A stretch of 46,731 nt of DNA from a virus (taxonomy: Duplodnaviria > Heunggongvirae > Uroviricota > Caudoviricetes): the IMG/VR virus record IMGVR_UViG_2529292726_000019. One strand, written 5' to 3'. Positions within the stretch are counted from its first letter, which is position 1. Every line of letters starts with the position of its first letter. Positions 20,501 through 42,406 of the stretch are shown in pieces. Position numbers and translations under genes: made by a program. Below the pieces are notes generated by a model. That model was not told the origin of the DNA, did not search any database, and worked only from the letters and a program-made list of their open reading frames with translations.

Positions 20501-20536
20501 TAAGCCGCGCCACGACTGGTCTGAAGTCATGTTCAT

Positions 20537-20648
20537 GTATGCTGTCAGCGGTAATTGATAGTCTGTCAGCGGTTCACCGTATGCTGCCAACTGTTTTTGG
20601 TATTCTGTCAGCGGCAAATCAAGTATGCTGTCAGCGGTTGAATGACAA
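20537..20648. repeat. five iterons (consensus GTATGCTGTCAGCGGT) upstream of repA at roughly 21-22 bp spacing
   Basis: Direct repeats at about 20537, 20559, 20579 (degenerate), 20600 and 20633. Confidence 0.8.
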
Positions 20649-20658
20649 AGGTGTCCAC

Positions 20659-21753
20659 ATGTCCACAAAAAATAAAAAAGGTAAAAATAACAAAGAAGTA
20701 GAAGATAACATCGACAACTTTGAAGAAGGTTCCCTTGAATTGTACACAGGGGAACTTGTCCCTAATAGCAACAATACAGTCCAACCAATTGCGTTGATGC
20801 GACTGGGGTTGTTCGTCCCCACGCTTAAGGGAACAAAATACAGTAAACGTAACAAGCCAAATGAGATCGATGCTTCAAAGGAGCTTGTCCAGCTCGAAGT
20901 AGCCCGTTCTGAAGGCTATTCCGATATCAAGATAACCGGTCCTCGTCTCGACATGGATCATGATTTCAAAACGTGGGTGGGCGTTGTGCGTTCGCTGGCA
21001 GAATACGGCGAACCTAACGGTCGTGTCGAGTTAAGCATCACGAAATTTGCTAAGTTTTGTGGCTATCCATCGTCACAGATCCGCAAAACACTCCGCGACC
21101 GGCTTACAAACAGTCTTTTGAAGATCATGCGTACAACTCTGTCTTTCCAGAGAACGTATGAAGAAAAGAACGTCGACGGCTCTAACAAGATCTCGCTTCT
21201 GATGGTGCACCTCATCAATAGCGTGGACTACAACGAGCAGAAAGATACGGTGGTGTTCTATGCAGAACCGAAGCTGGCCGAACTATATCGCTTTGACCAT
21301 AAGGTTCTTTTGCAGTTAAAGGTTATCAATAAGCTACCACGCAAAGAAACAGCACAGGCTCTGTACACCTTCATCGAAAGTCTTCCAACCAAGCCTGCGC
21401 CGGTATCGCTTGCTCGATTGCGTGCGCGACTCAATTTGAGTAGCAGAAATGTCAGCTCGCAGAATCAGACTATACGTAACGGCTTAAAAGCTCTCCAAGA
21501 TTTGGGCTATCTCGAATACAGCGAGATTAAGCGTGGGCGGTCGATCTATATCCAGATTCACAGCCGCAATCCAAAACTCAAAGTCGCACCGCCAAAACCT
21601 GAAGACATCGAACCCAAAAAACCAGATGAGAAAGCTGGGGAAATTGATGCCAAACAGAACATTATCAACAAGATAACCGAACTTTCGCAGAATTTGACGC
21701 CTGAAAATATCAAGATGATTGAGATCCTTTCCAATAGTCTCAAACTGCTTTGA
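20659..21753 (+). CDS. repA: iteron-binding replication initiator (RepA-like)
   Basis: Only long plus-strand gene in this block, bracketed by 17 copies of its presumptive binding site. Start placed at ATG 20659 (MSTKNKKGK) downstream of the iterons. Confidence 0.75.
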   Translation: MSTKNKKGKNNKEVEDNIDNFEEGSLELYTGELVPNSNNTVQPIALMRLGLFVPTLKGTKYSKRNKPNEIDASKELVQLEVARSEGYSDIKITGPRLDMDHDFKTWVGVVRSLAEYGEPNGRVELSITKFAKFCGYPSSQIRKTLRDRLTNSLLKIMRTTLSFQRTYEEKNVDGSNKISLLMVHLINSVDYNEQKDTVVFYAEPKLAELYRFDHKVLLQLKVINKLPRKETAQALYTFIESLPTKPAPVSLARLRARLNLSSRNVSSQNQTIRNGLKALQDLGYLEYSEIKRGRSIYIQIHSRNPKLKVAPPKPEDIEPKKPDEKAGEIDAKQNIINKITELSQNLTPENIKMIEILSNSLKLL

Positions 21754-21870
21754 TATGCTGTCAGCGGTGAAATGTATGCTATCAGCGGCTATTTTTCTGA
21801 AAAGTATGCTGTGAACGGTTAAAGATATGCTACCAGCGGTATAGTGAGATGAACGTATGCTGTGAGCGGT
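21754..21870. repeat. five iterons immediately downstream of repA
   Basis: Copies at about 21754, 21774, 21804, 21825 and 21855 with single-base variants. Confidence 0.8.
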
Positions 21871-22030
21871 AAATCATCTATCACCACTCAATGCTCTGTC
21901 ATACCTCCCCAGTGGTTACTAACCTCGAAGAGTGCATTCCATATAGGTTTGCGCTCACTAACATTCTATTGCTATTGCGCTGATTGCTTGTAGTGAAAGG
22001 CATTTATTGCCTGCTACTCCCTGATAGAAC

Positions 22031-22285
22031 GTATGCTGTCAGCGGTGTTTTATTGAGGAATTTTTGTTTGGATATGCTATCAGCGGTAATTAATGGTATA
22101 TGTCAGACATTCGTATGCTGCCAGCGGTAATTTTGTTCTGGTTATACCCATACCGGGACACATTATTCATGCAATTTCTTAAGTATGCTGTCAGCGGTAA
22201 AAAATCGAGTAAAGTATGCTGTGAGCGGTGAGATAGACTCTCGATATGCTATCAGCGGTAGTTGATTGTGTATGCTGTCAGCGGT
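22031..22285. repeat. seven further iterons (incA-like copy-control array)
   Basis: Copies at about 22031, 22072, 22114, 22183, 22214, 22244 and 22270. Confidence 0.8.
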
Positions 22286-22300
22286 GACGACTATGAAATA

Positions 22301-37196: not shown

Positions 37197-38294
37197 AAAA
37201 TTTACACGAATAAGCTCTGTTGATAGACGATCTCCCTTGAATTTGTGGTCAATTTCGTCTAAATCCGGTTGCTCTACGATTGATGCGATGTACGTCGAGA
37301 AACTTTCTAAGGCGTCTCGCATCTCGTCCATATAATCGTGCCGGTCGTAGACTCGATCTATCCCCTCAAGACTGTGGTTCATGATTTTGCGTGATACCTC
37401 CTGGCTTATGCCTAATGCTGGGAAGTAACTACGCGCAGTACGGCGCAAATCTCGGGGTGTAAATGGCTCAAGCTCCATCAGTTCTGGTCGTTCCAGAATA
37501 CGACGTAATGCCTGGGCTATTGCCACTTTAGACATAGGAAGGTCTTTCCCGATTTTTTTATTCGAAGGCACGAGCCACTGGCTGCCTTTACCGTATTCGA
37601 ACAACTCTTCAATACATGTGCGCATTAATGTGCTTAAAGGCAGCGAATGCTCACGGGCAGATTTGTTCCTCTTGCCTTGATTCCAAACCCCACGCTTAAG
37701 ATTGAACTCACTTTTTTTAGCCCGCAGTACTTCGTCAGGTCGTCTTGCGGATACAAGACACAGCCTGGCCGCCCATTTTGTACCAGCGCACACATTGAAG
37801 TAGTCCCATATATTCCAGAACACCCATACCTCTGCGTCGGTCAGCTTCCGCTCGCGAGGTGTGGGCTTTGCGCCACCGGCAACTTTGTTTAGTGACATAT
37901 CGTTTAACGGTGACACGTCTATCATCCCCTGGAAGGCGCACCAGCTAAGGAACTGCTTCATCAGAGAGAAAACGCGGCGGCCCATAACAATTTTGCCATC
38001 CAGTATTAGTGGGTTGACCAGTTGGTTCACCATGAACCTATTAATGTCACTTACTTTTACATCGGCAATGTGCGGCAAAACATGTATCAAAATACAATGA
38101 ACAGCGATCTCTGGCCGACGTCTGGTTATCAGCAGAGATAAGCGAGTGAATAACATGAATGCGTCCGAGAATCTCATGTCATTGCTGACCTGGGAGATCA
38201 TAACGGCCTGCATTTGAGATGCTCTTTCGAGATACTCAATCGCCTCTTTTGAGGTGTTCTCCGCAGCGCGTGCTCTGTCAAAGCTATTTTTCAT
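37191..38294 (-). CDS. tyrosine site-specific recombinase (integrase/Cre-like)
   Basis: C-terminal catalytic region ARRPDE...RDLRRTARSY...MNHS...YDRHDY consistent with the R-H-R-Y tetrad. Confidence 0.75.
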   Translation of the reverse strand: MKNSFDRARAAENTSKEAIEYLERASQMQAVMISQVSNDMRFSDAFMLFTRLSLLITRRRPEIAVHCILIHVLPHIADVKVSDINRFMVNQLVNPLILDGKIVMGRRVFSLMKQFLSWCAFQGMIDVSPLNDMSLNKVAGGAKPTPRERKLTDAEVWVFWNIWDYFNVCAGTKWAARLCLVSARRPDEVLRAKKSEFNLKRGVWNQGKRNKSAREHSLPLSTLMRTCIEELFEYGKGSQWLVPSNKKIGKDLPMSKVAIAQALRRILERPELMELEPFTPRDLRRTARSYFPALGISQEVSRKIMNHSLEGIDRVYDRHDYMDEMRDALESFSTYIASIVEQPDLDEIDHKFKGDRLSTELIRVNFS

Positions 38295-38392
38295 ATGACA
38301 ATCACCGAGTTACGCCGATTCACTGTATAAGTAAACAGTATATTAGGCATAGATTCTTATAGGATCAAGAGTAAAAGTAACTCATTTTCACT

Positions 38393-38425
38393 AATGATTC
38401 CATACATAGTAGGTATGGAATCATT
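38393..38425. repeat. 13-7-13 inverted repeat aatgattccatac-atagtag-gtatggaatcatt, candidate recombinase core site
   Basis: Perfect 13-bp arms with a 7-bp spacer, about 100 bp upstream of the recombinase start. Confidence 0.45.
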
Positions 38426-38561
38426 GAGGATGCGTTTTTTGAAATCTACCCTTCGTTCTAGGAGGTAATATTGAAAATCAAAATAATACATAACAATGCA
38501 TATAAACGTTTGGTAGGGTACAATAAGACAACTTATACTAATAAAGAGGGATTCGAGACAG

Positions 38562-39116
38562 ATGCACTTGCATAAGTTGGTTACACCTGGTTTGGCTTCA
38601 TTGCCGGGTGATCTGTCATATTTAGATATAGACTTTGTTTTCTCTGGCAATGAAGCTCGTAAGGCTAGATACCGTTTAGTCTTTTGCCCTCCTTCTTTAG
38701 ATCCTGTTGCCGCAGAAACTATGCATAATATGTTAGGGGCTGATGTTTATGGGTTGTGTGTATCTGTCGTTAGTTTTGTGGACATGATTCAACTTGACAG
38801 GCAGCAAGAACAGCTCCAGAATGTCGCTCTTGGAGCGGAAGAGCCAATTAACGTATTTGCCAAACCCGAAGGGTCTTTTAATCTTACTTTAGGTGAACTT
38901 CAATACCTTTACGGTACTTTAGTTGACTTAATGCTCAAAGTTGCCGACAATGAAGGCATACAGATTTTATTCTTTGCGGCAGAACGCGAAGAACTGATGG
39001 CCACATACAAGAGATATGTGAAGAGATTTACACAAGAGCGTGGCCTAACTTATTTAAATGACGGAGCTTCCTATGCGATACGAACACAACACTACCCAAA
39101 ACAAAGGGAAGATTGA
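38562..39116 (+). CDS. hypothetical protein (184 aa)
   Basis: Plus-strand ORF followed by a terminator. Confidence 0.45.
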   Translation: MHLHKLVTPGLASLPGDLSYLDIDFVFSGNEARKARYRLVFCPPSLDPVAAETMHNMLGADVYGLCVSVVSFVDMIQLDRQQEQLQNVALGAEEPINVFAKPEGSFNLTLGELQYLYGTLVDLMLKVADNEGIQILFFAAEREELMATYKRYVKRFTQERGLTYLNDGASYAIRTQHYPKQRED

Positions 39117-39240
39117 TTTTAAAACTATCCATGCTAGCAAAGTCGAAATGATCAAACGATTCATGACTGCTAAAGCTGAAGCTGAACGCAAGGGTGAAGT
39201 GGTCTTTAAGCCACTGTAGTGGTTAGCTAGAAGTTATGAA

Positions 39241-39260
39241 AAAGGCCCATATGGGCCTTT
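39241..39260. terminator. bidirectional rho-independent terminator aaaggcccat-atgggccttt
   Basis: Perfect palindrome with A-run before and T-run after, between convergent genes. Confidence 0.5.
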
Positions 39261-39300
39261 TTTGTTATATGTACTATATGTACAAAGATGTGGCTTTTAC

Positions 39301-39546
39301 TTATAAGAAACTTACGAAAGATGCCATCTCTGTGTATCCGCCAATCGGCTGGCCATCGATCAGCACCTGGGGGATAGTCTCTACCGGTTTACCAACAATT
39401 TCACTAAGTTTTTCCTTGTCGATACCGGCAGTGGTGATGTCGATGTACTCATAATCACCGTAGCCATGTCCCTTTAGTTGCTTCGCCAGCTCGACTGCAC
39501 GTTTGCAGTATGAGCAGTTATCTCGTCCGTAGATAGTGATCGTCAT
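39301..39546 (-). CDS. glutaredoxin-like protein
   Basis: CSYC active-site motif near the N-terminus in a thioredoxin-fold-sized ORF (81 aa). Confidence 0.7.
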   Translation of the reverse strand: MTITIYGRDNCSYCKRAVELAKQLKGHGYGDYEYIDITTAGIDKEKLSEIVGKPVETIPQVLIDGQPIGGYTEMASFVSFL

Positions 39547-39893
39547 TGCTTTGCCTCATGCCACTTTTGCTTCAGGAGATAGCCTTCCAGGGGCCAGATT
39601 TGATCGATAGCATCTTTTCGAGCGTACTCGCGACCAACATCAAAGTTGAAGATTTCTGGTCTTACGCACGCAGATTTTCCCGTTACGGTATATCCATTTT
39701 TGAGAACCATAACGCAGAACGTTAAGAGTTTTAACGACTCATGACCTTTGTCGATATCTGTTTTTGAATTGTAAACAGAGATGAAGTTATCCCCGTGGCT
39801 GGCATCATATGCAGTGAAATAATGTTCACTTTGAATGAGTTGTTCAATGTGTTCAGGGGTGACTTTTAGTGGTGTGTTCTCTTTGCTGGTCAT
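39543..39893 (-). CDS. hypothetical protein (116 aa)
   Basis: ORF stop/start coupled to the glutaredoxin gene. Confidence 0.45.
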   Translation of the reverse strand: MTSKENTPLKVTPEHIEQLIQSEHYFTAYDASHGDNFISVYNSKTDIDKGHESLKLLTFCVMVLKNGYTVTGKSACVRPEIFNFDVGREYARKDAIDQIWPLEGYLLKQKWHEAKQ

Positions 39894-39939
39894 TATTTCT
39901 TCCTACAAAGTTCGTAGACTTGACTCTTTCAGTTGCAAA

Positions 39940-39959
39940 AAAGGGGCCGAAGCCCCTTT
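39940..39959 (-). terminator. hairpin ggggccgaagcccc with T-run, downstream of the tRNA cluster
   Basis: aaaggggccgaagccccttt flanked by A/T runs. Confidence 0.45.
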
Positions 39960-40035
39960 GAATTTTGCGCTGAAAAAAAAGTGTTGCTAGGATGTTAGCA
40001 AGCTATGGTTAAGAACGTCTGCCGTAATTGTCTAT

Positions 40036-40113
40036 CACAGCGTTGAGCGGTCTGGTTTATGTTAGCGGAGTCTTAATCTGGGTGATTAAAAGGCCAAACC
40101 GCTCAACGCTGTG
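40036..40113 (-). ncRNA. long hairpin (16-bp perfect stem, about 46-nt loop) abutting the 3' end of tRNA-Ser
   Basis: cacagcgttgagcggt...accgctcaacgctgtg. Confidence 0.3.
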
Positions 40114-40115
40114 TC

Positions 40116-40202
40116 TGGCGGAGAGTAATGGAATCGAACCATCATCGCTTGCGCAATGGGACGGTTTTCAAGACCGCTTGAGCACCATGCTCCCTACTCT
40201 CC
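40116..40202 (-). tRNA. tRNA-Ser (anticodon TGA), class II with long variable arm
   Basis: Acceptor GGAGAGT/ACTCTCC, anticodon loop CTTGAAA, T-loop TTCGATT, encoded CCA. Confidence 0.7.
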
Positions 40203-40346
40203 GGCCGTTGTGGTGGCCGGGACTGAATCTCCGGCATACGGTGCAGCCAATTAGGACTACGGACGATCACCGCTCGCGAAAGGGAAGATTTGCGGCCGCA
40301 TTTCCCTAACATCCAAGAAAGCTATCGCATCAGTCTGCGAATCCAC

Positions 40347-40425
40347 CACAACGGTAAGATCACTACCTTTCGACCAGTCATTGTGCACATGAACGACGAT
40401 TAACCGTAATGATCTTATCGTTGTG
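40347..40425 (-). ncRNA. structured hairpin element 1 (stem cacaacggtaagatca / tgatcttatcgttgtg)
   Basis: About 79-nt imperfect hairpin; paralogous to element 2 and sharing the 3' flank gttgtgttg. Confidence 0.3.
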
Positions 40426-40476
40426 TTGTGAAGCCAGATGCTTATCTTCTGGTTGCCTCAAAGAGCTGCACTTCCT

Positions 40477-40565
40477 CACAACGGTAAGAGCACTGGTCTG
40501 ACTCTATCGATTTACGGGCTTGTGGGTCAGTATCGCCGATTCGCCCAATGCACTTACCTGTTGTG
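40477..40565 (-). ncRNA. structured hairpin element 2 (stem cacaacggtaag / cttacctgttgtg) abutting the 3' end of tRNA-Thr
   Basis: About 89-nt imperfect hairpin; does not fold as a tRNA by eye. Confidence 0.3.
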
Positions 40566-40813: not shown

Positions 40814-41591
40814 AATTCAGCACTGCCAGTATTTATTACTCAACAGTGCCAATCGCGACGGTTTAGTTTCTGCCAGGAAACGCACCGCTACTTGCACTTT
40901 TCGTTAGTGCCAGACGCTTTCGACTTCGCTCAATAGTAGAAGGCAAAATCTTTAAGTAGATGATGTTTCTGAGGACAGCACCTACTTTGTAATTTATACA
41001 ATGTGATGTATGGAATCATTTGTTGTGAAAACAGGCACCAATGGCAACAGTGGTTAAACCTACACAACAATCCTGTCTTCACAACGTTGAGGCCACTACT
41101 CCGATTGAATGTTTGCCCAACATGTTACATATCAACGCTCGCCGGTATCTCTGTGAATAGAACCTTAGAATTGATAAAAATGTAATGGCCTCAACGTTAT
41201 GTGCTGGCTAACCATACCAGCCGGGCTACGTCGCCGCTTTTTAACCCAGTATAAACGACATAATTGAACAAAATGACGTAACAGGATGGGCGGTCAGTGG
41301 CTAAGAATCCGGGAGTCATATGGAGTTGAAAATATACCAACCGCCCATTCTGTTACTTCATCGGAGGGAACATGAATGTTCCCTCCTGCGTTCTGCAATC
41401 ACACTCGCTCAGTGTGTCCCATTTCGGTAACGAGGCTGGAAACTGACCTCGCTGGTGTTTGGCTTATTAGGCTACTGCCAGATAGACTTCTTCGTTTGCA
41501 CTTGTATTTAAGTTCAAACAGTCGCGTCTCAACGAAAACAAAGTCATCTTATACACAAAAGATAAGTAAGTAAATACTTATCAATATGTTT

Positions 41592-41882
41592 TTATTCGGT
41601 TGTGACTTTTTTGATCAAGGCCACTCTACGACTAGGTGTTCTTGTGATGGTGGCAGTGAATCGTTTCGCTTGGATAGTAATGGTTTCGTTCTCCTTAAGT
41701 TGCCCGTAGCGAGTTTCCACCAGGGTGCCAAGACGCCACAGACCATCATCGATACGTTTATGACTAGCAAATTTAATCAGCAACAGTTTTACGACTAACT
41801 GACCTACGTAAAAGGCGAATGCGACTCCGGCCGCTAAGAAATAGGTGGCCAACCACCAGTCCCAAGAAGTTAAATTGCTCAT
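41592..41882 (-). CDS. membrane protein (96 aa), member of a small tandem paralogous family
   Basis: N-terminal TM helix WWLATYFLAAGVAFAFYVGQLVV and a basic tail. Confidence 0.5.
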   Translation of the reverse strand: MSNLTSWDWWLATYFLAAGVAFAFYVGQLVVKLLLIKFASHKRIDDGLWRLGTLVETRYGQLKENETITIQAKRFTATITRTPSRRVALIKKVTTE

Positions 41883-42031
41883 TTTCTAACCTTTGTTTCA
41901 TGAACTACCCGATACACACGCTTTCCGATGCATAGTGTTTTGGTTTTAAGTTCCTGCTTAATTAAATCACGACAGATGCCGAAGCCAATAAGGAAGCCAC
42001 CCATAAAAGCTAATGAGATGTATGGAATCAT
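41879..42031 (-). CDS. small membrane protein (50 aa, below the ORF-track cutoff), paralog
   Basis: Hand-translated MIPYISLAFMGGFLIGFGICRDLIKQELKTKTLCIGKRVYRVVHETKVRK; ATGA-coupled to the 96-aa gene. Confidence 0.3.
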   Translation of the reverse strand: MIPYISLAFMGGFLIGFGICRDLIKQELKTKTLCIGKRVYRVVHETKVRK

Positions 42032-42243
42032 TTTAACGCTCCTGATTCTACTAATTGCTGTAGCAATACTTTCCCTTTATCAGTTAACTGGTAGTTGGCC
42101 GAACACTTCGTTTCAGAAACGTTTGCAACCAACCCTAAACGCTCTAACTTAGCTCGCGTTTTAGGCTTCCAGTACTCAGGGAACTCCGGCCACTTACTGA
42201 TTTCATGAAGCGTTTCCTTCTCCCGTTTACTTAATACGATCAT
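42028..42243 (-). CDS. hypothetical protein (71 aa)
   Basis: ORF; start overlaps the end of the upstream small ORF. Confidence 0.45.
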   Translation of the reverse strand: MIVLSKREKETLHEISKWPEFPEYWKPKTRAKLERLGLVANVSETKCSANYQLTDKGKVLLQQLVESGALK

Positions 42244-42406
42244 CCTTAATCTCCTTCACTGTGTGGGTTATTTCTACAATGCGATAAATACGACCGCGTC
42301 GTTCTATAACACCGCTTTTAATGTAGTCATTGATGCAACTGGACATCACCACAATACCTATGAAAAAACCAACTGCTAAAAATGCAATCATCCAGCCGAG
42401 CATCAT
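42227..42406 (-). CDS. small membrane protein (59 aa, below the ORF-track cutoff), paralog
   Basis: Hand-translated MMLGWMIAFLAVGFFIGIVVMSSCINDYIKSGVIERRGRIYRIVEITHTVKEIKDDRIK, sharing the GxRxYRxVE tail with the 50-aa paralog. Confidence 0.3.
   Translation of the reverse strand: MMLGWMIAFLAVGFFIGIVVMSSCINDYIKSGVIERRGRIYRIVEITHTVKEIKDDRIK

What the first reader, a model, noticed from the sequence alone, without database searches (positions are those of the whole stretch)
41005..42032. Recombinase arm sequence recurs at the starts of small membrane-protein genes
GATGTATGGAATCATT (containing the right arm of the 38393-38425 palindrome) recurs at 41005-41020 and 42015-42032. On the minus strand it reads ATGATTCCATAC (MIPY), the start of the 50-aa small membrane ORF and of a 29-codon remnant at about 41020. 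These may be recombinase secondary sites, or the palindrome itself may have arisen from head-to-head copies of this gene start.
Basis: seen in the sequence. Interest (0 to 1): 0.45.

Follow-up and report, generated by a model that had tools for sequence, protein, structure and literature searches.

The report
Conserved recombinase half-sites in a phage-plasmid
A 16-base sequence identical to one arm of this phage-plasmid's recombination site is kept unchanged at three other places near the recombinase gene, one of them inside the DNA polymerase gene. These copies look like extra binding sites for the recombinase, not gene-duplication leftovers or sites where the genome rearranges.

Summary
GATGTATGGAATCATT occurs exactly at 41005-41020 and 42017-42032, and at a third, missed place, 32362-32377(-), inside the DNA polymerase gene. 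The window is an SSU5/pMT1/pHCM2-type phage-plasmid.

The 13-7-13 palindrome at 38393-38425 is the cognate site of the adjacent tyrosine recombinase. Homologs down to 45% identity carry an equivalent palindrome upstream, and its arms change with the protein.

The isolated copies are true half-sites, with no second arm. They are the only other copies in a 108-kb relative and all lie within 6 kb of the palindrome. Each is the longest invariant nucleotide run in its surroundings, including synonymous positions. In a Klebsiella lineage with arms ending CACA, the intergenic copy also ends CACA.

No relative shows an inversion, deletion or mosaic breakpoint at them. Their flanks share no similarity, so they are not a tandem duplication. 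The palindrome predates the small gene.

Best reading: recombinase-linked accessory half-sites that do not serve as crossover points. Their function is unproven.

The parts
38393..38425 (.). Core recombination site: AATGATTCCATAC-ATAGTAG-GTATGGAATCATT (13-7-13 palindrome), 99 bp upstream of the recombinase start codon.
   Evidence: The arms are invariant and the 7-nt spacer varies by lineage across about 170 loci. An equivalent palindrome lies upstream of 57 of 61 distant integrase homologs.
37191..38294 (-). Tyrosine recombinase ('integrase'), 367 aa.
   Evidence: Pfam PF00589, E = 6.8e-10, plus a Phage_int_M match below the curated cutoff. Found in 934 PLSDB plasmids, including Y. pestis pMT1-type and S. 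enterica pHCM2-type plasmids.
38323..38338 (.). LexA-box-like operator CTGTATAAGTAAACAG, directly downstream of the -10 (TAATAT, + strand 38340-38345) of the putative integrase promoter. The -35 is TTGATC (+ strand 38363-38368).
   Evidence: The only exact CTGTAT-N6-ACAG in the window. The promoter/box arrangement is conserved in all SSU5-like lineages. Promoter assignment is my reading of the sequence.
38426..38455 (+). Semi-conserved cargo-side extension of the site (N~9, T-run, GAAATCT-like). Unrelated cargo DNA begins beyond it.
   Evidence: BLAST homology to relatives ends at 38425-38448.
41005..41020 (+). Intergenic half-site GAT+GTATGGAATCATT, in right-arm orientation, 2.6 kb from the palindrome.
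   Evidence: It is conserved inside DNA that is otherwise poorly alignable, and distant BLAST HSPs start exactly at 41005. In Klebsiella lineage B it reads GTATGGAATCACA, matching that lineage's arms.
42017..42032 (+). Half-site that supplies the start codon and codons MIPYI of the 50-aa ORF, and the TGA stop of the upstream 71-aa ORF.
   Evidence: ATGATTCCATA is the longest invariant run (11 nt, next longest 5) among 36 unique gene sequences.
32362..32377 (-). Half-site inside the DNA polymerase III alpha gene (codons R-CMESL), in left-arm orientation, 6.0 kb from the palindrome.
   Evidence: A 14-nt invariant run against a next-longest of 5 among 62 unique sequences. This protein loop is not conserved in lineages B and C.
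41879..42031 (-). 50-aa single-pass membrane protein gene, family MIPYI..GF.IC.DL..QELKTKTLRIGKRVYRVVHET.
42028..42243 (-). 71-aa ORF, annotated in phage Cyrano as a putative transcriptional regulator. Its stop codon overlaps the start codon of the 50-aa ORF.
   Evidence: weak NCBIfam hit only. Present only in lineages that have half-sites.
42227..42406 (-). 59-aa ORF, the true paralog of the 50-aa ORF. It lacks the motif.
   Evidence: Absent from several close relatives.
36810..37196 (+). XRE-type HTH regulator, convergent with and overlapping the 3' end of the recombinase gene.
41060..41245 (-). Conserved structured element: a 19-bp stem (41080-41099 / 41182-41201) plus a short hairpin, about 60 nt from the intergenic half-site.
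   Evidence: compensatory changes in 4 pairs, and G-U pairs only on the minus strand. No Rfam match.
29121..32627 (-). DNA polymerase III alpha-like gene that hosts the third half-site.

Best explanation
The repeats are three dispersed copies of one arm (a half-site) of the recombination site used by the phage-plasmid's own tyrosine recombinase. The recombinase acts at the 13-7-13 palindrome next to its gene. That site most likely serves plasmid multimer resolution, in the manner of Cre/lox, and it is also the sharp boundary of a variable cargo region.

I infer that the isolated 16-bp copies (GAT+GTATGGAATCAT) are bound by single recombinase subunits. I also infer that selection keeps them as accessory binding sites that do not serve as crossover points in present-day genomes. 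What that binding achieves is not known. It could hold or loop recombinase near the core site, modulate recombination, or affect the genes they sit in.

The two cargo-side copies may have begun as the distal halves left behind by old insertions at the palindrome. That would explain why the small ORF starts inside an arm. The polymerase copy must have been built by selection within a variable protein loop.

Shown: the identity, clustering, orientation, nucleotide-level conservation and covariation of the copies, and the lack of rearrangements at them. Inferred: recombinase binding and any function.
For: 1. The palindrome belongs to the recombinase.
- 57 of 61 homologs at 45-52% or 85-86% identity (Pantoea, Rahnella, Erwinia, Xenorhabdus, Morganella, Yersinia and others) have a 13-7-13 palindrome 85-280 bp upstream. 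The arms differ by clade: GTATGGAATCATT, GTATGGAATCACA or GTCTGGAGTCACA.

2. Distribution.
- A complete 108-kb relative has only 5 copies at up to 2 mismatches, all within 9.2 kb around the palindrome. The chance that 3 random sites fall that close is about 0.0014.
- Weaker matches occur at background frequency, 30 against 32 expected.

3. Constraint at the DNA level.
- In 62 unique polymerase sequences the longest invariant run is the 14-nt TGTATGGAATCATT, and the next longest is 5. Only 16 of 170 codons are invariant, and 4 consecutive ones lie in the motif.
- In 36 unique small-ORF sequences the motif is again the longest invariant run, 11 nt against 5.
- The intergenic copy is an island of identity in diverged DNA.
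- The polymerase loop that holds the motif is not conserved as protein in lineages B and C.

4. Covariation.
- In Klebsiella lineage B (integrase 58% identical) the arms end CACA, and the positionally homologous intergenic copy also ends CACA in every locus that covers it.

5. True half-sites.
- The position of a second arm matches 0-5 of 13 bases, where chance gives about 3.25.

6. Orientation.
- Each copy has the orientation of the palindrome arm that faces it.
Against: - No binding data exist.
- The covariation rests on one evolutionary change (2 bases), so it is only moderately strong.
- All isolated copies share a GAT extension that the palindrome arms lack. This could mean a different or additional reader.
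- Half-sites are not needed for the recombinase. SSU5-like lineage C (Xenorhabdus, Morganella, Photorhabdus) and the megaplasmid clade have the palindrome but no isolated copies within 10 kb.
- In lineage B the small-ORF copy has drifted at synonymous positions while the peptide (M)IPYI stays. Part of the conservation at that site is therefore protein-level.
- No concrete benefit of monomer binding can be named from sequence alone.
Confidence: 0.5

Rival explanations
1. The copies are fossil scars only. They are leftover halves of old recombinase-mediated insertions or rearrangements, and they persist because they became coding sequence (MIPYI, CMESL), with no present DNA-level role.
For: - The two cargo-side copies lie in a block (small ORFs, structured element, tRNAs) between the ligase gene and the palindrome. 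Lineage C lacks this block entirely.
- They have the orientation expected for the distal halves of insertions at the palindrome.
- The small ORF starts, and the 71-aa ORF stops, inside the arm.
- In lineage B the small-ORF copy drifts while the peptide is kept.
Against: - Synonymous positions are invariant in the polymerase and small-ORF copies across lineages whose neighbouring codons vary freely.
- The intergenic copy is non-coding, yet conserved and covarying.
- The polymerase copy cannot be an insertion scar. Polymerase is colinear and homologous throughout in lineage C, which has no such site.
Confidence: 0.15
2. The 16-mer is read by something other than the recombinase. One candidate is the 71-aa ORF product encoded next to it. 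Another is RNA pairing, in which polymerase mRNA (GAUGUAUGGAAUCAUU) pairs with the start region of the small-ORF mRNA (AAUGAUUCCAUACAUC).
For: - The isolated copies share a GAT extension absent from the palindrome arms.
- The 71-aa ORF and the half-sites co-occur: present in lineages A and B, absent from C.
- All genes here are on the minus strand, so the polymerase copy is complementary in RNA to the two cargo-side copies. The pairing is 20 nt and perfect in this window.
Against: - Complementarity beyond the 16-mer is not maintained. The polymerase flank varies (ATGAGAT, AAGGGAT, ATGGGAT, AAGAGGT) while the ORF flank stays ATGAGAT.
- The core shows no compensatory changes, only strict invariance, which fits a protein-read site better.
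- Lineage B keeps the intergenic copy without any polymerase partner.
- Identity to the recombinase arms, and covariation with them, would be a coincidence.
Confidence: 0.15
3. The copies are active secondary crossover sites. When the recombinase is derepressed, it would recombine half-sites with each other or with the palindrome in a subpopulation. Possible outcomes are excision of the cargo/tRNA block or inversion of the 9.6-kb segment, which would truncate the polymerase gene.
For: - The architecture is one conserved arm next to a 7-nt variable region, as in shufflon sfx sites (from memory).
- The positions just inside the arm are unusually polymorphic among near-identical genomes. They show four-gamete violations and a 9-nt tandem duplication in L006.
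- The integrase promoter carries a LexA-like box.
Against: - No inverted, deleted or mosaic arrangement at these sites in about 170 loci.
- Predicted junctions: palindrome x intergenic deletion and intergenic x ORF deletion each gave 0 hits in IMG/VR and in JGI metagenomes, and the polymerase x ORF inversion junction (searched in IMG/VR only) gave 0. The parental junction is in 34 IMG/VR contigs.
- The spacer-equivalent sequences differ from the palindrome spacer and among sites in most lineages, which normally blocks tyrosine-recombinase exchange.
- Consensus assemblies would miss rare events.
Confidence: 0.12
4. The copies are a diverging tandem duplication of the small membrane-protein gene start, or a chance recurrence.
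For: Two copies are 1012 bp apart in direct orientation and both begin an ATG-led frame MIPYI.
Against: - The flanks share no similarity.
- The 'remnant' frame is 5-6 codons in other lineages.
- The real paralog (59-aa ORF) lacks the motif.
- A third copy sits inside the polymerase gene on the other strand.
- Chance expectation is 0.55 matches, with 0 of 100 shuffles reaching 5.
Confidence: 0.03

Closest known systems
Cre/loxP of phage-plasmid P1
   Same: A tyrosine recombinase is encoded next to its own site, which is built from 13-bp inverted arms around a short asymmetric spacer. The element is a phage that lives as a plasmid, and the likely role is multimer resolution. The site is also a recombination hot spot.
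   Different: - The spacer is 7 nt here, against 8 nt in loxP (from memory).
- No detectable sequence similarity to any solved recombinase.
- The promoter carries a LexA-like box.
- Conserved dispersed half-sites are not a described feature of lox, to my knowledge.
Rci/sfx shufflon of IncI plasmid R64
   Same: Sites consist of one conserved recombinase-binding arm next to a 7-bp spacer, with a non-conserved other side (from memory). The isolated copies here have the same anatomy.
   Different: Shufflon sites lie in a compact cluster, and inversion isomers are seen. Here the sites are 1-10 kb apart, the spacer-equivalents differ, and no inversion was found.
TnpI/IRS of Tn4430
   Same: Extra copies of the same recombinase-binding motif, in direct orientation beside an inverted-repeat core, act as accessory non-crossover sites (from memory).
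   Different: There the accessory repeats lie within about 100 bp of the core and impose resolution selectivity. Here they are kilobases away, on both sides, and absent from sister lineages.
Integron IntI/attI/attC platform
   Same: The integrase gene is divergent from its site, variable cargo begins right at the site, and there is a LexA-type box at the integrase promoter.
   Different: There are no attC-like hairpins and no cassette array. Recently exchanged cargo is not bounded by additional half-sites. The number of half-sites is fixed at three, or one.
Polar elements around dimer-resolution sites (KOPS and Ter around dif)
   Same: The isolated copies point toward the resolution site from both sides.
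   Different: There are only three copies, no translocase or terminator protein is implicated, and chance orientation cannot be excluded (P about 0.25).

Membership tests
Tyrosine recombinase (Pfam Phage_integrase, PF00589) | Catalytic domain match above the curated threshold. | tested here: met
   PF00589 scores 39.4 bits against a cutoff of 27.1, E = 6.8e-10, residues 172-320. The motifs RRPDE, RDLRRT and NH..EG.DRVY are invariant in 5 homologs.
Tyrosine recombinase core site | Two inverted recombinase-binding arms around a 6-8 bp spacer, linked to the gene and co-evolving with it. | tested here: met
   A 13-7-13 palindrome lies upstream of 57 of 61 homologs, with clade-specific arms.
Cre/lox family | Sequence or structural relatedness to Cre. 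| tested here: inconclusive
   No PDB chain matched at E up to 0.01 by sequence. The single-sequence AlphaFold model was unusable at pLDDT 38, so no fold comparison was made.
Shufflon (Rci/sfx) | Invertible segments flanked by inverted single-arm sites, with inversion isomers among copies or relatives. | tested here: not met
   All loci have the same order and orientation. The predicted inversion junction is absent from IMG/VR.
Integron | An array of cassettes, each ending in a recombination site, with cargo differences bounded by such sites. | tested here: not met
   There are no extra half-sites in larger cargo regions. The 880-bp insertion carrying the 184-aa ORF has no half-site at its distal end.
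Recombinase accessory (non-crossover) binding sites | Physical binding by the recombinase, and an effect on recombination. | not testable with these tools
   Only indirect evidence is available: identity to the arm, covariation, clustering and conservation.
Tandem gene duplication | Residual similarity of the flanks beyond the repeat. | tested here: not met
   Flank alignment scores equal the shuffle means.

The most novel reading that the evidence does not exclude
The half-sites are working partner sites of a repressor- or LexA-controlled recombinase. On derepression it would carry out programmed excision or inversion in a minority of molecules. One outcome would be excision of the cargo/tRNA block as a circle that can enter another phage-plasmid's palindrome. 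Another would be inversion of the 9.6-kb segment between the polymerase and small-ORF copies, which would switch off the phage DNA polymerase. This would be a lox-like site combined with single-arm sites, acting as a cargo-mobilising or lifestyle switch. The unusually polymorphic bases next to the arms would be the footprint of that activity.
Probability: 0.12. Interest if true: 0.75.

Novelty: new variant of a known kind. Interest (0 to 1): 0.5.

Why it matters
SSU5/pMT1/pHCM2-type phage-plasmids are common in Escherichia, Klebsiella, Salmonella, Enterobacter and Yersinia. This recombinase was found in 934 PLSDB plasmids, and these elements carry accessory and resistance genes (PMC9600943).

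The work defines their recombinase site, which I did not find described in the searchable literature. It shows that this site is the fixed edge of the variable cargo region.

It also shows that extra single arms of the site are kept by selection, even inside an essential replication gene where the DNA motif dictates the protein sequence. If the recombinase binds them, this would be an unusual case of long-range accessory half-sites for a simple Cre-like system. It would also be a directly testable handle on how these elements control recombination and cargo exchange.

Tried and rejected
- **Tandem duplication.** The flanks of the 41008 and 42020 sites share no similarity.
- **Palindrome derived from the gene start.** Rejected, because the palindrome exists with the integrase where the small ORF is absent.
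- **Rearrangement breakpoints at the half-sites.** HSP maps for about 84 loci show none. The SNP-density change statistic at the sites falls at the 17th-47th percentile. Deletions seen in L048 and L054 have other breakpoints.
- **Predicted recombinant junctions.** 0 hits in IMG/VR for all three junctions, and 0 in JGI metagenomes for the two deletion junctions (the inversion junction was not searched there). The parental control gave 34.
- **Integron-like cassette array.** No additional half-sites accompany additional cargo.
- **Weaker dispersed sites genome-wide.** They occur at background frequency.
- **A fourth site inside the integrase gene (VWNQ codons).** It reads GTATGGAATCA in most SSU5-like lineages but GTTTGGAATCA in this window, and it varies freely in the megaplasmid clade. 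The protein motif probably explains much of it.
- **Dependence on integrase presence.** This could not be tested. The integrase-less SSU5 junction occurs in 0 of 549 plasmids, so SSU5 is a recent deletion derivative.
- **Rfam.** No family matched apart from tRNAs.
- **PADLOC.** No hits for the small ORFs or the cargo genes.
- **Structure.** The single-sequence AlphaFold model was unusable at pLDDT 38.
- **Literature.** No paper contains the motif in this context or describes the site.
Full report
**Observation**

The 16-mer GATGTATGGAATCATT is present exactly at 41005-41020 and 42017-42032 on the + strand. It matches the two arms of the palindrome at 38393-38425 with 1 and 2 mismatches. The search gave 5 matches at up to 3 mismatches against 0.55 expected, and 0 of 100 shuffles reached 5.

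It lies inside the DNA polymerase III alpha-like ORF (29121-32627, -), where it encodes R-C-M-E-S-L. Identity between the polymerase copy and the copy at 42013-42032 extends to 20 nt, and 41001-41020 differs from that 20-mer at one base.

On the minus strand the motif reads ATG ATT CCA TAC. At 42031 this is the start of a 50-aa single-pass membrane ORF. The ATG overlaps the TGA stop of the upstream 71-aa ORF.

**Context**

The window is an SSU5/pMT1/pHCM2-type phage-plasmid, about 98% identical to Escherichia phage Cyrano and to 'phage CMS-2020a' plasmids. All genes from the ligase gene to the polymerase gene run on the minus strand. In window coordinates, left to right, the order is:
- polymerase, cobS-like and cobT-like genes;
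- an XRE regulator (+);
- a 367-aa tyrosine recombinase (37191-38294, -; Pfam PF00589);
- the palindrome;
- variable cargo and four tRNA genes;
- a 780-bp non-coding stretch;
- ORFs of 96, 50, 71 and 59 aa;
- the ligase gene.

**The palindrome is the recombinase's own site**

In about 170 related loci from IMG/VR, GenBank phages and plasmids, the two 13-nt arms are invariant. The 7-nt spacer differs by lineage: ATAGTAG, CTAAAGA, TTAATAG, CTTACAA, CTACCAA.

Homologs of the recombinase at 45-52% or 85-86% identity occur in Pantoea, Rahnella, Erwinia, Ewingella, Hafnia, Xenorhabdus, Photorhabdus, Morganella and Yersinia. In 57 of 61 cases they carry a 13-7-13 palindrome 85-280 bp upstream of the gene. 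The arms are clade-specific (GTCTGGAGTCACA type), and the spacer is close to TTAATAG in either orientation. A Klebsiella lineage (B; integrase 58% identical) has arms GTATGGAATCACA.

Arms that change with the protein identify the palindrome as the cognate site.

Homology between this window and close relatives ends within 0-25 nt of the outer end of the right arm. Beyond that, dozens of unrelated cargo sequences follow, including a YafO-type toxin, a SASA-family esterase and unknown ORFs. They come after a semi-conserved flank of about 28 nt.

The site is therefore also the fixed edge of the accessory-gene region. This is what would result if related co-resident elements cross over at the site and then resolve elsewhere by homologous recombination; that mechanism is an inference.

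**The isolated copies**

*Distribution and anatomy*
- In the complete 108-kb Cyrano genome there are exactly five copies of the 13-mer at up to 2 mismatches. They are the two arms and the three isolated copies, all within 9.2 kb.
- Weaker matches occur at background frequency, 30 observed against 32 expected.
- The isolated copies have no second arm: 0-5 of 13 matches at the expected position.
- They share a 3-nt GAT extension that the palindrome arms lack.
- Each has the orientation of the palindrome arm that faces it.

*Conservation beyond coding needs*
- Among 62 unique polymerase 5' sequences (510 nt), only 58% of positions and 16 of 170 codons are invariant. The longest invariant run is the 14-nt TGTATGGAATCATT, and the next longest is 5 nt.
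- The two codons just 5' of this run are the most variable in the region: MR, KG, KR, MG, GG, GR, ER, SG, NG, NR.
- The whole loop is different in lineages B (GEEVPVCKMG) and C. The DNA motif therefore appears to dictate CMESL, not the reverse.
- In 36 unique small-ORF genes the motif is again the longest invariant run, 11 nt against 5.
- The intergenic copy is an island of identity in DNA that otherwise hardly aligns between lineages. Distant BLAST matches to about 190 plasmids start exactly at 41005.

*Covariation*

In lineage B, the positionally homologous intergenic copy reads GTATGGAATCACA, like that lineage's arms, in all seven loci that cover it. This is one evolutionary event affecting two bases, so the support is moderate.

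No relative shows an inversion or deletion with an end at an isolated copy. SNP density does not change at them, with the statistic at the 17th-47th percentile.

I wrote out the junctions that recombination would create and searched for them. The deletion junctions (palindrome x intergenic copy, intergenic x ORF copy) gave no hits in IMG/VR or in the JGI metagenome contigs. The inversion junction (polymerase x ORF copy), searched in IMG/VR only, also gave none. The parental junction is in 34 IMG/VR contigs.

The two cargo-side copies are not a tandem duplication.
- Their flanks align no better than shuffled sequence.
- The '29-codon remnant' is 5-6 codons long in other lineages.
- The real paralog of the 50-aa ORF is the 59-aa ORF at 42227-42406, which lacks the motif.

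The palindrome did not arise from gene starts. It accompanies the recombinase in megaplasmids and in SSU5-like lineage C, both of which lack the small ORFs.

**Phylogenetic distribution and likely origin**

- Lineage A (Escherichia, Salmonella, Enterobacter, Citrobacter, Yersinia, Kluyvera) has all three copies.
- Lineage B has the intergenic copy and a decayed small-ORF copy (GTATGGGATCAAT). That copy still encodes (M)IPYI, so part of the conservation at this site is protein-level.
- Lineage C (Xenorhabdus, Morganella, Photorhabdus) has the same ligase...int-HTH-cobT-cobS-pol synteny but only cargo between the ligase gene and the palindrome. It has no isolated copies.
- Phage SSU5 itself lacks the recombinase module but keeps the copies. 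Its junction is found in 0 of 549 related plasmids, so it is a recent deletion derivative.

The cargo-side copies thus sit in an A/B-specific block inserted next to the palindrome. They have the orientation expected of distal halves left by insertions at the site, which would explain a gene that starts inside an arm.

The polymerase copy cannot have arisen that way, because the polymerase gene is colinear in lineage C. It must have been assembled by selection in a variable loop.

**Mechanism**

The best-supported reading (confidence about 0.5) is that the 16-mers are binding sites for single recombinase subunits, maintained by selection as accessory sites that do not serve as crossover points. 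Binding and function are inferred, not shown.

The rivals are:
- scars without present function (0.15), contradicted by synonymous-site invariance and by the polymerase copy;
- a different reader, either the 71-aa ORF product, which co-occurs with the half-sites, or RNA-RNA pairing between polymerase mRNA and the small-ORF start (0.15), weakened by the lack of maintained extended complementarity and by the arm covariation;
- rare programmed recombination at the half-sites (0.12);
- duplication or chance (0.03).

One observation fits the programmed-recombination reading. The bases just inside the arm at the polymerase and intergenic copies are unusually polymorphic among 97-99% identical genomes. 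They show four-gamete violations and a 9-nt tandem duplication in one contig. That is where a tyrosine recombinase would cleave. Relaxed constraint in a loop explains it equally well.

**Comparison with known systems**

The core system works like Cre/loxP of P1: a recombinase next to 13-bp inverted arms, in a phage that lives as a plasmid. I could not establish membership. No solved recombinase matched by sequence, and the single-sequence structure model was unusable.

The single-arm anatomy recalls shufflon sfx sites. The idea of same-motif accessory repeats recalls the TnpI/IRS system of Tn4430. The gene/site/cargo layout with a LexA-type box recalls integrons. For the shufflon and the integron, a defining feature was tested and not met: inversion isomers, and cassette-bounding sites. 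For TnpI/IRS, the defining adjacency of the accessory repeats to the core is contradicted by the kilobase spacing seen here. I found no paper that describes this site or motif.

**Caveats**

- Only consensus assemblies were examined, so rare events would be missed.
- IMG/VR loci include near-duplicates. I counted unique sequences where it mattered.
- The orientation pattern rests on three sites.
- The promoter and LexA-box assignments are sequence readings.

Noticed in passing
window 38323-38338 (with -10 at 38340-38345 and -35 at 38363-38368, minus strand): A LexA-box-like palindrome, CTGTATAAGTAAACAG, lies directly downstream of the -10 of the putative integrase promoter. It is the only exact CTGTAT-N6-ACAG in the window, and the arrangement is conserved in all SSU5-like lineages.
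   Followed up: partly
window 41060-41245, minus strand: A conserved structured element: a 19-bp stem (41080-41099 / 41182-41201) around a variable ~80-nt loop, plus a short hairpin. Compensatory changes occur across lineages (GGCC, GATC, GACC/GGTC), and G-U pairs appear only on the minus strand. No Rfam family matches. Possibly a new non-coding RNA or a processing signal upstream of the tRNA cluster.
   Followed up: partly
window 38426-38455, and the cargo-side flank of the palindrome in about 100 loci: A semi-conserved flank of about 28 nt (N~9, T-run, GAAATCTGA-like) follows the cargo-side arm, even where the cargo beyond it is unrelated. The functional site is probably larger than the palindrome and asymmetric.
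   Followed up: partly
window 38426-40560 versus L002, L003 and IMG/VR loci: The region just right of the palindrome is a cargo hot spot with dozens of alternative contents, including a YafO-type toxin, a SASA-family esterase of 637 aa, an unknown 302-aa ORF and this window's 184-aa ORF at 38562-39116. The tRNA complement also varies (Ser, Thr, Tyr, Asn here; Phe and Gln in Klebsiella relatives).
   Followed up: partly
window 32378-32384 (polymerase codons 83-84); L006: The two polymerase codons next to the half-site are hypervariable, with at least ten different residue pairs, four of them among near-identical E. coli-type genomes and with four-gamete violations. Contig L006 has a 9-nt tandem duplication, ATGAGATGT, at this spot.
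   Followed up: partly
integrase gene, codons VWNQ (about 735 nt inside the gene; Cyrano 41696): Most SSU5-like lineages read GAT GTA TGG AAT CA here, an 11-14-nt match to the half-site in left-arm orientation. This window reads GGG GTT TGG AAT CA. It may be a by-product of the protein motif.
   Followed up: yes
spacer of the palindrome in L092 versus L093, and across loci: The asymmetric 7-nt spacer occurs in both orientations relative to the integrase gene (TCTATAG or CTATAGA; TTAATAG or CTATTAA), even between close relatives. The site has therefore been flipped repeatedly.
   Followed up: no
L004 (phage SSU5) 11625-11688: SSU5 lacks the regulator-integrase-palindrome-cargo module: its cobT-like gene is followed after 63 bp by tRNA-Asn. 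This junction is found in none of 549 related plasmids. The type phage of the group is therefore an atypical deletion derivative.
   Followed up: yes
window 42227-42406: The 59-aa membrane ORF, paralog of the 50-aa ORF, is absent from several close relatives, with breakpoints at 42254 and 42402.
   Followed up: no
window 20530-22290; also 4530, 14866, 19550, 28530, 34158, 41561; also 12395, 19434, 23367, 32623, 34039, 43758, 46295: Three other repeat families are present. The first has about 14 iteron-like copies of GTATGCTGTCAGCGGT; RepA flanking is inferred from the Cyrano annotation, not mapped in this window. The second is a palindromic GATAAGTAAGTAAATACTTATC motif at six intergenic places, possibly an operator or promoter element. 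The third is a near-identical translation start region, AAAGGAAAAACACATG, at seven gene starts.
   Followed up: no
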